From the NCBI RefSeq assembly GCF_009914755.1, contig NC_060939.1: a stretch of 64,000 bases of DNA. The stretch is one strand, 5' to 3'. The notes under the pieces were generated by a model. That model did no database searches. It had not been told where the DNA came from and was given only the letters and a program-made list of their open reading frames with translations. Every line of letters starts with the position of its first letter. The first letter of the stretch is position 1. This DNA comes from the human T2T-CHM13v2.0 reference genome, Homo sapiens. Made by a program: the position numbers and the translations under genes. Shown in pieces: positions 22,313 through 28,193 of this stretch.

Positions 22313-23593
22313 TTGCAAAAGAAGCTCAAGTACATCTAATCTAATCCCTTACCAAGGCCTGAATTCTTCACTTCTGACATCCCAGATTTGATCTCCCTAC
22401 AGAATGCTGTACAGAACTGGCGAGTTGATTTCTGGACTTGGATACCTCATAGAAACTACATATGAATAAAGATCCAATCCTAAAATCTGGGGTGGCTTCT
22501 CCCTCGACTGTCTCGAAAAATCGTACCTCTGTTCCCCTAGGATGCCGGAAGAGTTTTCTCAATGTGCATCTGCCCGTGTCCTAAGTGATCTGTGACCGAG
22601 CCCTGTCCGTCCTGTCTCAAATATGTACGTGCAAACACTTCTCTCCATTTCCACAACTACCCACGGCCCCTTGTGGAACCACTGGCTCTTTGAAAAAAAT
22701 CCCAGAAGTGGTTTTGGCTTTTTGGCTAGGAGGCCTAAGCCTGCTGAGAACTTTCCTGCCCAGGATCCTGTGTGACCAAAAGTGCCTCTGCTGGGAGCTG
22801 GGATCCTCGGGACCATGCTTGCTAGCGCTGGATGAGTCTCTGGAAGGACGCACGGGACTCCGCAAAGCTGACCTGTCCCACCGAGGTCAAATGGATACCT
22901 CTGCATTGGCCCGAGGCCTCCGAAGTACATCACCGTCACCAACCGTCACCGTCAGCATCCTTGTGAGCCTGCCCAAGGCCCCGCCTCCGGGGAGACTCTT
23001 GGGAGCCCGGCCTTCGTCGGCTAAAGTCCAAAGGGATGGTGACTTCCACCCACAAGGTCCCCACTGAACGGCGAAGATGTGGAGCGTAGGTCAGAGAGGG
23101 GACCAGGAGGGGAGACGTCCCGACAGGCGACGAGTTCCCAAGGCTCTGGCCACCCCACCCACGCCCCACGCCCCACGTCCCGGGCACCCGCGGGACACCG
23201 CCGCTTTATCCCCTCCTCTGTCCACAGCCGGCCCCACCCCACCACGCAACCCACGCACACACGCTGGAGGTTCCAAAACCACACGGTGTGACTAGAGCCT
23301 GACGGAGCGAGAGCCCATTTCACGAGGTGGGAGGGGTGGGGGTGGGGTGGGTTGGGGGTTGTGGGGTCTGTGGCGAGCCCGATTCTCCCTCTTGGGTGGC
23401 TACAGGCTAGAAATGAATATCGCTTCTTGGGCGGAGGGGCTTCCTTAGGCCATCACCGCTTGCGGGACTACCTCTCAAACCCTCCCTTGAGGCCACAAAA
23501 TAGATTCCACCCCACCCATCGACGTTTCCCCCGGGTGCTGGATGTATCCTGTCAAGAGACCTGAGCCTGACACCGTCGAATTAAACACCTTGA

Positions 23594-23800
<207 letters not shown>

Positions 23801-23873
23801 CTCTTTCATTGGTTTTCACTGGAGATTCTAGATTCGAGCCACACCTCATTCCGTGCCACAGAGAGACTTCTTT

Positions 23874-26800
23874 TTTTTTTTTTTTTTAAGCGCAACGCAA
23901 CATGTCTGCCTTATTTGAGTGGCTTCCTATATCATTATAATTGTGTTATAGATGAAGAAACGGTATTAAACACTGTGCTAATGATAGTGAAAGTGAAGAC
24001 AAAAGAAAGGCTATCTATTTTGTGGTTAGAATAAAGTTGCTCAGTATTTAGAGCTACCTAAATACGTCAGCATTTACACTCTTCCTAGTAAAAGCTGGCC
24101 AATCTGAATAATCCTCCTTTAAACAAACACAATTTTTGATAGGGTTAAGATTTTTTTAAGAATGCGACTCCTGCAAAATAGCTGAACAGACGATACACAT
24201 TTAAAAAAATAACAACACAAGGATCAACCAGACTTGGGAAAAAATCGAAAACCACACAAGTCTTATGAAGAACTGAGTTCTTAAAATAGGACGGAGAACG
24301 TAGCTATCGGAAGAGAAGGCAGTATTGGCAAGTTGATTGTTACGTTGGTCAGCAGTAGCTGGCACTATCTTTTTGGCCATCTTTCGGGCAATGTAACTAC
24401 TACAGCAAAATGAGATATGATCCATGAAACAACATATTCGCAAATCAAAAAGTGTTTCAGTAATATAATGCTTCAGATTTAGAAGCAAATCAAATGATAG
24501 AACTCCACTGCTGTAATAAGTCACCCCAAAGATCACCGTATCTGACAAAATAACTACCACAGGGTTATGACTTCAGAATCATACTTTCTCTTGATATTTA
24601 CTTATGTATGTATTTATTTTTTTTAATTTATTTCTCTTGAGACGGCGTCTCGCTCTGTCGCCCAGGCTGGAGTGCGATGGTGTGATCTCGGCTCACTGCA
24701 ACCGCCACCTCCCTGGGTTCAAGCGATTCTCCTGCCTCAGCCTCCCGAGTAGCTGGGACTACAGGTGCCCGCCACCACGCCCAGCTAATCTTTATACTTT
24801 TAATAGAGACGGGGTTTCACCGTGTCGGCCCGGATGGTCTCGATCTCTTGACCTCGTGACCCGCCCGCCTCGGCCTCCCAAAGTGCTGGGATGACAGGCG
24901 TGAGCCACTGAGCCCGGCCTTCTCTTGACGTTTAAACTATGAAGTCAGTCCAGAGAAACGCAATAAATGTCAACGGTGAGGATGGTGTTGAGGCAGAAGT
25001 AGGACCACACTTTTTCCTATCTTATTCAGTTGATAACAATATGACCTAGGTAGTAATTTCCTATGTGCCTACTTATACACGAGTACAAAAGAGTAAAACA
25101 GAGAGACTGCTAAATTAAAGGGTACGTGAAGTTCTTCATAGTAACTCCGTAAACTGGAACACTGTCAAAAAGCAGCAGCTAGTGAATTGTTTCCATGTAT
25201 TTTTCTATTATCCAATAAGTGAACTATGCTATTCCTTTCCAGTCTCCCAAGCACTTCTTGTCCCCATCACCACTTCGGTGCTCGAAGAAAAAGTAACAAA
25301 TCAAGGAACACAACTAAAGAAACACACACACAAACCAAAGACAACTACAGCGTCTGCAAAAGTTTGCTAGAAGACTGAAACTGTTGAGTATAAGGATCTG
25401 GTATTCTACGATGATCATGAGTTCACTTCAGAGTTTGTTCAAGACATACGTTTCGTAAGGAAACATCTTAGTTAGAAGTTATTCAGCAGTAGGTACCATC
25501 CCTAAGTATTTTTCACCAAATTCGTGACAATAAAGAGCTATCTAACCAGAAAAATTAGCGAGTACCGGCACCATCCATAGGGCTTTGTCTTTACGCTTCA
25601 TTAGCACTTACCATGCCTTACAATGTCTAGGATTGACCCTGATAGCATTTCGAAAACAAGCTAATGCTTTGTCCAGTTCTTCAGTGAAGACAAGCTCACG
25701 CCCTAATGCGCTATAGGCATAAGCATCATTTGGATCCACTTCGAGAGTTCTCTGGAAGAATTGAATCGCAATATCGTGTTCCCGTTGCAGACCGAAACAG
25801 TTCCCTGCAGCACACCAGGCCTCTGGCTGGCGAATTTTTATCCATGTCTGTGAAGTCTTTGGACAGAACTGAAAGAGCAACCTCTTTCGGAGGATGCCAA
25901 AGTGTTGTAGAGTAGATCTCCATGCCTTCGACTCTGTAATTCTCAATCCTCCTAACCTCTGAGAATTGTCTTTCAGCTTGCGTGGACTCTGAAAGTTTAC
26001 AATAGGCCCTTCCGATTTGGCACAGTACCCAACCGGTATTGCAGTGGTGAGAAGCTAGATGGCTCAAGATGCTGATAGCTTCTTTGCCGTGGTAAGAACA
26101 CAAAGCTAAATAACCTTTCCCCCTTTCACGAAGAAGGCTCATCAAGCCTTCCGCTGCTGCTTTTTGTAGATTAAAAGCCTGAATCTGAGGCGCGATTGCG
26201 GCTATTTTCCCTTCTGAAATGACGGAAGAGTCCAATTTTGTCACTTCCAGGCTATCACTTATGTTCGGTGGAGTTATTGCTCCTTTATTAGTTTTACTTT
26301 TGGTTCTTCTGTTTGGGATTTTAGGTGGAAACTTCATTTTTAATTTTCTCCTATTCTCCTCGGTTGTGGAGCTGTCACTAGTCAAGAGTCGTGAATTTCT
26401 TCGAGGCGGTGCATTTGGGGGAGATGCCATAGTGGGGCTCAATACCTGAGGTGTTGCCCTTGTCGGCGGACCAGAACTTTGTGTTTTTGCAAGGACTGGA
26501 GTTACCTTTCGGCTCTTTCCCCTCTGCGAGAAGACAGACGGTGTTCCGGTTTGGCCGATTCTGGCAACAGGCTTTTTTGAAGGGGCTCCGGTGGATGGCA
26601 CGTCAATGACAGACGGTGTCTCATACCAGTGCAGTTTTGTCAATAGGGTCCGTCTCCGGGACTTGGGGTTTCTAATGGCAAAATGCCAACACTTGGGGTT
26701 AATGGACTAACAGCTGCTGGTCCTCCTAATAAACTTCGACCAGTTTTTGGTTTATGTTGAACCTGTTTAGATCATATGGAAGTTCCTGTTCCCAGTGGGA

Positions 26801-27668
26801 CAGTATCAGGTGAAAGGACAGCTGAATCGATAGAAGACACTGGGGAGTCTGTATTCAAGGAGTACTTTGAATTGGAAGATTCTAAATTCCATCCGTTTCA
26901 TTCGACGGTGTCCTGGGGTGTTTCCGTAAGAACGGTCTCGGGCTGTCTGTGACATAAACTAGGACGAGGTCCAAGTGTTGTGGCGCAACACTTGGACAGG
27001 CAGTTGCTAAAGCTCTCTAGAGAGGTGAATCAAAATGTTTGGTCAGGATCTGGCTTTTCCCCCCTATTTCACATCATGATTCAAAGGGACACCAGAGGAA
27101 AGGATTTCAACGAAGGCTCTTTTGGTCACATTCTGATCCTTTGGTAAGCCGATCTGTCTTGCAATATACATGTCCCGACGATGGAAGGGGAAAGCGAGCT
27201 GAATCACCAAACTCAGGAACGATAATATCATCGTGGCTTTTCTGCTTATGAAACACTCCACCCGATAAGATTTGATCCCCTTCTGCAAGCTTGCTGAGAT
27301 CAACACAACATTTCGCAAGCAGGCATTTGCATTGCGGGGTAGTACAACTGTGTCCTTTCAAGAGTCTATATGTTTTATAGGCCTTTCCTGAGCGGTAAGA
27401 ACAGGTCGCCAGTAAGAACAAGGCTTCTTCTGAGTGTACTTCTGCATAAAGGCGTTCTGCGGGGGAAACCGCATCTCGGTAGGCATAGTGGTTTAGTGCT
27501 TGCCATATAGCAGCCTGGACGGGTCCCTGCAGCACCGCCATCCTCGAGGCTCAGGCCCACTTTCTGCAGTGCCACAGGCACCCCCCCCCCCATAGCGGCT
27601 CCGGCCCGGCCAGCCCCGGCTCATTTAAAGGCACCAGCCGCCGTTACCGGGGGATGGGGGAGTCCGAG
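23874..27668 (-). pseudogene. CDC27P: CDC27 retrocopy: 5'UTR 27542-27668, spliced frameshifted CDS 27541-25612, intron-like 3' extension to poly(A) at 23871-23887
   Basis: ORF fragments MAVLQGPVQAAIWQALNHYAYRDA, LQKAAAEGLMSLLRE and RNAIRVNPRHCKAW match CDC27/APC3; several frameshifts; candidate TSD at 23858-23873 and 27669-27684. The coding part is very secure; the left boundary is inferred. Confidence 0.9.
24601..24919 (-). mobile_element. Full-length Alu (Y/Sc-like) with its own TSD
   Basis: TSD TTCTCTTGATATTTA (24586-24600) and TTCTCTTGACGTTTA (24920-24934). Confidence 0.93.
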
Positions 27669-28193
27669 ACAGAATGACTTCTTTATCCTGCTGACTCTGG
27701 AAAGCCCGGCGCCTTGTGATCCATTGCAAACCGAGAGTCACCTCGTGTTTAGAACACGGATCCACTCCCAAGTTCAGTGGGGGGATGTGAGGGGTGTGGC
27801 AGGTAGGACGAAGGACTCTCTTCCTTCTGATTCGGTCTGCACAGTGGGGCCTAGGGCTGGAGCTCTCTCCGTGCGGACCGCTGACTCCCTCTACCTTGGG
27901 TTCCCTCGGCCCCACCCTGGAACGCCGGGCCTTGGCAGATTCTGGCCCTTCCTGGCCCTTCAGTCGCTGTCAGAAACCCCATCTCATGCTCGGATGCCCC
28001 GAGTGACTGTGGCTCGCACCTCTCCGGAAACATTGGAAATCTCTCCTCTACGCGCGGCCACCTGAAACCACAGGAGCTCGGGACACACGTGCTTTCGGGA
28101 GAGAATGCTGAGAGTCTCTTGCCGACTCTCTCTTGACTTGAGTTCTTCGTGGGTGCGTGGTTAAGACGTAGTGAGACCAGATGTATTAACTCA

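What the first reader, a model, noticed from the sequence alone, without database searches (positions are those of the whole stretch)
23858..27684. CDC27 retrocopy appears to derive from an intronically polyadenylated transcript and extends ~1.7 kb beyond its coding homology
Seen: on the minus strand CDC27 homology stops at ...AAG GCA TG|GTAAGT (25611-25606), a perfect splice donor that gives an in-frame TGG TAA. AT-rich intron-like sequence follows to an AATAAG (23915-23910) 22 nt before a 17-nt poly(A) (23887-23871). The whole 3.8 kb is flanked by a 14/16 direct repeat, ACAGAGAGACTTCTTT (23858) and ACAGAATGACTTCTTT (27669), with an A-rich L1-endonuclease-like start on the minus strand. Inference: this is a fossil of a truncated CDC27 isoform lacking the C-terminal TPR region, later amplified with the rDNA array. 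It could also produce false intronic CDC27 variant calls.
Basis: partly seen in the sequence, partly recalled or inferred. Interest (0 to 1): 0.8.

Follow-up and report, generated by a model that had tools for sequence, protein, structure and literature searches.

The report
Truncated CDC27 mRNA fossil in rDNA
The known CDC27 pseudogene in the human ribosomal DNA spacer is one 3.8-kb insertion, not 2 kb: it copies exons 1-14 plus about 1.4 kb of intron 14 and a poly(A) tail, so it likely records a CDC27 mRNA cut short inside that intron, and it likely explains many reported CDC27 'cancer mutations'.

Summary
Confirmed and extended. Window 27668-25612 (minus strand) is CDC27 exons 1-14 spliced together. 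It runs without a break into intron 14 (89.6% identical over 1,352 columns) and ends 17 nt after that intron's first AATAAA, which the gene and 13 of 13 dispersed copies read still carry; this array copy has AATAAG. The gene is T-rich at the endpoint, so internal priming is excluded. Older spacer relics elsewhere in the genome show the empty site with one copy of the 16-bp target duplication (4 read, 9 matched), so the whole 3.8 kb is one insertion. Corrections: about 0.33 kb of the 1.7 kb is a later Alu, and the isoform would lose only residues 639-824, the distal TPRs. Exon 15 is single-copy, so no full-length retrocopy was found. The array copy drifted strongly AT-to-GC (71:3 private changes, against 23:18 in two dispersed copies). 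Eight of 16 'somatic' CDC27 variants in a review are its alleles. The pseudogene, its end at exon 14 and the false-call risk are known. I did not find its intronic-polyadenylation origin in print, but could not read the 1993 description. Whether the isoform is made today is untested.

The parts
27669..27684 (-). 5' target-site duplication (16 bp), preceded by AT; an L1-endonuclease-like AT|AAAG site
   Evidence: Identical 16-mer present once at empty sites on C8, C12 and C24 (3 of 4 read; 1 mismatch in the fourth); L1 site consensus is recalled
25612..27668 (-). Spliced CDC27 exons 1-14 (824-aa splice type, 122 nt of 5' UTR in the gene model); dead reading frame
   Evidence: 91.4% identity over 2,035 columns, 6 insertions of which 3 shift the frame; first stop at codon 145
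25606..25611 (-). Unused exon 14 splice donor GTAAGT; read-through gives W638 then TAA (25610-25608)
   Evidence: exon 14 = residues 569-637 of the 824-aa PDB chains
24920..25611 (-). Intron 14-derived 3' UTR, first part
   Evidence: Collinear with G000:C17:47999486-47998812; 87.1% identity over 658 columns
24601..24919 (-). Alu inserted after retroposition, with 15-bp duplications at 24934-24920 and 24600-24586; maps to Alu_human20 (Sc) and conserved blocks c35-36 of Agrawal and Ganley
   Evidence: Single site in the gene; same break in 13 of 13 dispersed copies listed; mapping by offset and Alu order, inferred
23888..24600 (-). Intron 14-derived 3' UTR, second part; at about 24267-24280 it holds the empty site of an Alu that the gene now carries (C17:about 47998500-47998190)
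   Evidence: 89.9% and 93.7% identity
23910..23915 (-). Decayed poly(A) signal (AATAAG; AATAAA in the gene at C17:47997835-830)
   Evidence: first of 3 AATAAA in the 4,756-nt intron
23874..23887 (-). Non-templated poly(A) remnant
   Evidence: The gene reads T-rich sequence here; an A-rich tail starts at the same place, within 2 nt, in 13 of 13 dispersed copies
23858..23873 (-). 3' target-site duplication (14 of 16 here; mostly 15 of 16 in dispersed copies)

Best explanation
This is one 3.8-kb insertion made of spliced CDC27 exons 1-14, about 1.4 kb of intron 14, a poly(A) tail and a 16-bp target duplication, and it likely arose when L1 machinery reverse-transcribed a CDC27 mRNA that had been cleaved and polyadenylated at the first AATAAA of intron 14. 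Shown: the spliced junctions, the contiguous intron, the signal, the non-templated tail, the empty site, and a later Alu inside. Inferred: the exon 14 donor was skipped and the cell's cleavage/polyadenylation machinery used the intronic signal, giving an mRNA of about 3.4 kb for a 638-residue CDC27 with its stop in the last exon; L1 ORF2p primed on its tail at AT|AAAG in one rDNA spacer on the ape stem; an Alu then landed in it; concerted evolution spread it to every array unit examined; segmental duplication scattered at least 14 further copies; and copies staying in the array drifted AT-to-GC, likely by GC-biased gene conversion. Today it is a non-coding passenger, and its likely practical effect is mis-mapped reads.
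For: Collinear exon 14 + intron 14 block ending at C17:47997813. All 13 upstream introns are removed. AATAAA lies 17 nt before the end, with U-rich sequence after it and no A-run; an endpoint falls 10-35 nt after an AATAAA by chance about 1.6% of the time (3.8% with ATTAAA). 13 of 13 dispersed 3' ends keep AATAAA, tail and target copy. Empty sites: 6 pattern matches, control 0; 4 of 4 read join both flanks around one 16-mer; 9 loci match across the junction, while every other listed hit stops at it. Intron 14 beyond the site gave only short repeat-like hits and exon 15 had 1 candidate, the gene itself. Ape-only presence as reported in PMC6281188.
Against: No transcript evidence was seen. CDC27 has 0 occurrences in the 4 supplements of an intronic-polyadenylation study, where CDC16 has 3; the table hit there lists differential events in B cells (PMC5928244). 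It has 0 in 1 supplement of PMC12456218. Cleavage falls after T rather than the usual CA (recalled preference), and no UGUA lies in the 125 nt upstream. One insertion says little about how abundant the isoform was. No monkey or ape DNA could be read.
Confidence: 0.9

Rival explanations
1. The template was an incompletely spliced nuclear pre-mRNA or a decay intermediate that was oligoadenylated or captured near this point, not a mature isoform made by the canonical cleavage machinery.
For: No present-day use of the site was seen; cleavage after T; no UGUA upstream.
Against: All 13 upstream introns are spliced. The end sits at the canonical distance from the first AATAAA with a U-rich downstream tract (chance about 2-4%).
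Confidence: 0.07
2. L1 primed internally on an A-rich stretch of an intron-retaining pre-mRNA.
For: Intron 14 has seven A-runs of 8 or more.
Against: None lies at the endpoint, which is followed by 3 A and 12 T in 20 nt; the nearest run of 8 or more downstream is about 670 nt away.
Confidence: 0.02
3. Two events: a 2-kb processed pseudogene, with the intron segment added separately by DNA duplication or gene conversion from the gene.
For: The element is usually drawn as the exon part only (recalled as 2 kb; the review PMC7941923 says exons 3 to 14).
Against: The exon-intron junction is seamless, the tail follows the intron part, one target duplication brackets the whole, and the empty sites lack all of it.
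Confidence: 0.01

Closest known systems
cdc27 pseudogene of the ape rDNA intergenic spacer (Gonzalez et al. 1993, not held; seen through PMC6281188, PMC11373518, PMC12579671)
   Same: Same element, strand and place; ape-only presence as reported; called non-transcribed in PMC12579671.
   Different: True extent is 3.8 kb with intron 14, tail and 16-bp duplication. The passages I read give no reason for the stop at exon 14 and do not mention the intron part.
HGNC-type CDC27 pseudogenes (eleven, on chromosomes 2, 14, 20, 21, 22, Y, 'exon 3 to 14'; PMC7941923)
   Same: At least 14 dispersed copies were found on C2, C13, C14, C15, C16, C20, C21, C22 and C24.
   Different: They are not independent retrocopies: they share the endpoint, target copy (13 of 13) and internal Alu break (13 of 13), so they descend from the one spacer insertion. 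Abyzov et al. could not exclude this for CDC27 (PMC3847774).
Processed pseudogenes as fossils of alternative transcripts (Shemesh et al. 2006; title seen in a reference list only; content recalled)
   Same: A retrocopy records an isoform's structure.
   Different: Here the isoform is an intronic-polyadenylation product, it is the only CDC27 retrocopy type found, and it was amplified by rDNA concerted evolution.
GC-biased gene conversion in rDNA (Escobar et al. 2011; title seen in reference lists only)
   Same: Strong AT-to-GC bias in array copies.
   Different: Here it is seen in a neutral spacer passenger with a known source gene and with escaped copies as controls.

Membership tests
L1-mediated processed pseudogene | Introns precisely removed | tested here: met
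   13 of 13 junctions between exons 1-14; a 4-nt duplication sits just before the 13/14 junction
L1-mediated processed pseudogene | Non-templated poly(A) at the 3' end | tested here: met
L1-mediated processed pseudogene | Target-site duplication with a single copy at the empty site | tested here: met
   16 bp; 4 of 4 empty sites read, 9 loci matched
L1-mediated processed pseudogene | L1 endonuclease-type site (TT|AAAA-like) | tested here: met
   AT|AAAG, 4 of 6 to the recalled consensus
L1-mediated processed pseudogene | Disabled reading frame | tested here: met
   First stop at codon 145; frameshifts of +2, +5, +4
Intronic polyadenylation isoform (composite terminal exon) | Terminal exon runs through a 5' splice site into the intron | tested here: met
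Intronic polyadenylation isoform (composite terminal exon) | AAUAAA 10-35 nt upstream, U/GU-rich tract downstream | tested here: met
   AATAAA ends 17 nt before the end; 12 of next 20 nt are T; no UGUA upstream
Intronic polyadenylation isoform (composite terminal exon) | Not internal priming | tested here: met
   3 A in the next 20 nt; A-runs elsewhere unused
Intronic polyadenylation isoform (composite terminal exon) | 3'-end reads at the site in living cells | not testable with these tools
   No 3'-end atlas on hand; two supplement searches gave no CDC27 row
Ape-specific rDNA spacer insertion | Whole 3.8 kb absent from monkey rDNA | tested here: inconclusive
   Monkey FASTA and alignment unreadable. 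Indirect: Alu20 has no macaque orthologue and its neighbours Alu19 and Alu21 map to consecutive macaque Alus 18 and 19; block c37 (inside, by my offset) is 12.9% and c38 (just outside) 73.6% identical in marmoset
GC-biased gene conversion tract | Excess of AT-to-GC fixations specific to the recombining lineage | tested here: met
   71:3 on the array branch against 23:18 private changes in two dispersed copies, Fisher p 2.6e-7; conversion itself was not observed and a mutational cause is not excluded

The most novel reading that the evidence does not exclude
The only CDC27 message found fixed as a retrocopy is the intron-14-truncated one because that isoform is a real, germline-abundant product that is still made. 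CDC27(1-638) would keep the N-terminal dimerisation TPRs but lose the distal TPRs (recalled: part of the IR-tail pocket for Cdc20, Cdh1 and Apc10), and so would act as a built-in damper of APC/C; the human gene still has the intact donor-stop and AATAAA.
Probability: 0.15. Interest if true: 0.72.

Novelty: new variant of a known kind. Interest (0 to 1): 0.47.

Why it matters
It resets the boundary of a landmark of human rDNA and explains why all CDC27 pseudogenes stop at exon 14. It shows that the scattered CDC27 pseudogenes are one insertion. It widens the region prone to false CDC27 calls into intron 14, and ties 8 of 16 reviewed 'somatic' variants to rDNA alleles. It points to one exact candidate poly(A) site in a core mitotic gene. 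And it gives a neutral marker of known origin inside the rDNA array, with pre-insertion relics and escaped copies as internal controls, for measuring biased conversion under concerted evolution.

Tried and rejected
Searching the genome with the window's own segment returned only array copies (40 of 40), and so did exon 1 as query apart from the gene; the 30 array loci are 2 distinct sequences (16 and 14) and are not independent evidence. Only short stretches of the dispersed copies and empty sites were read (13 3' ends, 2 intron stretches, 2 5' stretches, 4 of 9 empty sites), so their exons were not compared and 8 of the 16 listed variants stay unassigned. Folding the gene's poly(A) region gave nothing (z -0.32). 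Supplement searches for CDC27 in two polyadenylation papers were blank. Four 12-mers did not hit in the S5 alignment PDF, so the mapping to Agrawal and Ganley's coordinates rests on an offset from the 45S start and on Alu order. Gonzalez 1993 and Shemesh 2006 are not held, Abyzov's supplements are unavailable, and the primate FASTA/ALN files cannot be read; any of these may already describe the intron part. Internal priming and a two-event origin were rejected (see rivals).

Full report
Observation. The sequence features stand at the stated coordinates. The two 16-mers match at 14 of 16 and are the only such pair within 3 mismatches in the window. The window is one rDNA unit and a half; the segment recurs at 100% in the 40 best-scoring places, all in arrays, which amount to 2 distinct sequences among the 30 fetched.

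Source gene. Stretches of G000:C17 hold the parent. BLAST of window 23500-28100 gives 13 separate exon blocks and then one block running from exon 14 into the next intron. The exons, refined to AG/GT ends, total 2,035 nt and encode CDC27 to residue 638, followed by TAA if the exon 14 donor is read through. Exon 14 is residues 569-637 of the 824-residue CDC27 chains in the PDB. The same output shows further TPR-like repeats after that point, so the isoform would lose the distal repeats only (residues 639-824). Intron 14 is 4,756 nt; the retrocopy covers its first 1,674 nt in gene coordinates, at 89.6% identity over 1,352 columns.

The 3' end. Homology stops at C17:47997813, 17 nt after AATAAA (47997835-830), the first of 3 AATAAA in the intron. 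The gene continues with 12 T and 3 A in 20 nt. A-runs of 19, 16 and 10 nt lie further down and were not used. An endpoint would fall 10-35 nt after an AATAAA by chance about 1.6% of the time. Searching with the gene's intron found 13 dispersed copies and a fourteenth. All 13 whose 3' ends I fetched keep AATAAA, begin an A-rich tail within 2 nt of the same base, and end in the target copy. The window's AATAAG and a 5-nt duplication before the tail are later changes in the array. Intron 14 beyond the site matched only short repeat-like pieces, and exon 15 had one candidate, the gene: no longer or full-length CDC27 retrocopy was found. Against: no UGUA upstream, cleavage after T, and no CDC27 row in the polyadenylation supplements searched.

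The empty site. A probe for the predicted pre-insertion junction matched 6 places (control 0). The 4 that I read align to window 27944/27892-27669 at 78-81% and then directly to 23873-23806 at 84-88%, sharing one 16-mer. Using one as query, 9 loci on C8, C12 and C24 (the query included) match over about 500 nt, while the 31 other listed hits, dispersed and array copies, all stop at query position 258-259, the target site. The whole 3.8 kb is therefore one insertion with a 16-bp duplication at AT|AAAG. That these relics are old rDNA spacer pieces is inferred from 400-500 nt each.

Order of events. The retrocopy has the empty site of an Alu now in the gene's intron, and carries its own Alu (24919-24601, 15-bp duplication) that the gene lacks. 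All 13 dispersed copies listed break at that Alu site, so they left the array after it. In PMC6281188 (sections 18, 19, 25, passages and six supplements seen) the pseudogene is in apes, not monkeys. By an offset from the 45S start (window 34840), their blocks c35-36, stated to cover Alu_human20, fall at 24625-24903, inside this Alu, and the Alu order fits. Alu20 has orthologues from chimpanzee to gibbon and none in macaque, while Alu19 and Alu21 map to macaque Alus 18 and 19. This fits insertion on the ape stem. It also implies that the reported marmoset and mouse 'conservation' of c35-36 (80% and 57%, 80% and 52%) is likely similarity to paralogous SINEs. Changes separating the gene from all three copies are 26 of 1,187 columns (2.2%), compatible with that age (divergence yardsticks recalled).

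Evolution in the array. Against the gene, the window copy shows 140 AT-to-GC and 14 GC-to-AT differences in exons, and 105 and 20 in the intron; CpG rises from 30 to 75 and from 7 to 29; all 6 exonic indels are insertions. Polarised with two dispersed copies over 1,187 columns, private changes are 71:3 (85 in all) for the window, 12:8 and 11:10 for the dispersed copies, which share 19 more (8:5, 6 other). The array branch is thus about twice as long and almost purely GC-ward (Fisher p 2.6e-7). GC-biased gene conversion is the likely cause; it is known for rDNA (Escobar 2011, title only), and a mutational cause is not excluded.

False variants. The review PMC7941923 (passages and section 10 seen) already notes eleven pseudogenes covering exons 3 to 14 and warns of false calls. 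Of the 16 somatic variants in its Table 3, all 16 reference bases check against my gene model and 8 alternative alleles equal the window copy, including the first six rows, E6G and I235I (naive binomial p 5e-9, or 2e-5 ignoring allele identity). The other 8 do not match this copy; dispersed exons were not read. Intronic false calls are a prediction (141 substitutions in intron 14), not tested.

What is in print. Ten full-text searches found the pseudogene mentioned but no paper listing tying it to intron 14 or intronic polyadenylation; 'CDC27 + intron 14 + polyadenylation' gave 0. Passages of PMC11373518, PMC12579671, PMC3847774, PMC12105275 and bioRxiv 2026.03.22.713381 add nothing on it; in PMC7290577 CDC27 does not occur. 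Gonzalez 1993 could not be read, Gonzalez and Sylvester 1995 was not looked up, and genome-browser annotation was not available, so prior notice cannot be excluded.

Verdict. Real and well explained: a known pseudogene whose true form is an L1-type retrocopy of a likely intron-14-polyadenylated CDC27 mRNA (confidence 0.9). It is a passenger with no coding capacity. Its value lies in the candidate isoform it records, the artefacts it causes, and its use as a neutral marker of rDNA evolution. Interest 0.47.

Noticed in passing
G000:C8:46415260-46415759; C12:34093303, 34153683, 37999995, 38091021; C24:18482775, 18555796, 19162749, 19235763: Nine relics of the rDNA spacer flank that predate the CDC27 insertion. 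In the four read, an Alu left arm follows the site, whereas the window's Alu at about 23596-23804 starts part-way in, so it was likely shortened later.
   Followed up: partly
window 23888-27668: Extreme AT-to-GC drift and CpG gain in the array copy (245 against 34 differences from the gene), and 6 of 6 exonic indels are insertions, several of them short tandem duplications.
   Followed up: yes
window 24601-24919: The published 'deeply conserved' spacer blocks c35-36 (Alu_human20) map inside this ape-only insertion, so their marmoset and mouse matches are likely paralogous SINE hits.
   Followed up: partly
G000:C2:132.70 Mb, C14:9.67 Mb, C20:29.97 Mb, C24:10.51 Mb: Four dispersed copies are about 1.2 kb longer between their two target sites than the others; in the C2 copy L1-like sequence (recognised by eye) abuts the retrocopy's 5' UTR (L062), suggesting a shared L1 insertion that marks a sub-lineage.
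   Followed up: no
window 25525-27525 region, exons 1-14: 8 of 16 somatic CDC27 variants tabulated in PMC7941923 equal alleles of this rDNA copy.
   Followed up: yes
L037:7740-7790 (G000:C17:47997740-47997790): A (CAT)n microsatellite starts about 30 nt downstream of the inferred cleavage site in the gene; length variation there could affect use of the site.
   Followed up: no
G000:C15:14664868-14665132: A 5' flank ending at the target site with no 3' partner in the capped lists; possibly a further or partial dispersed copy.
   Followed up: no
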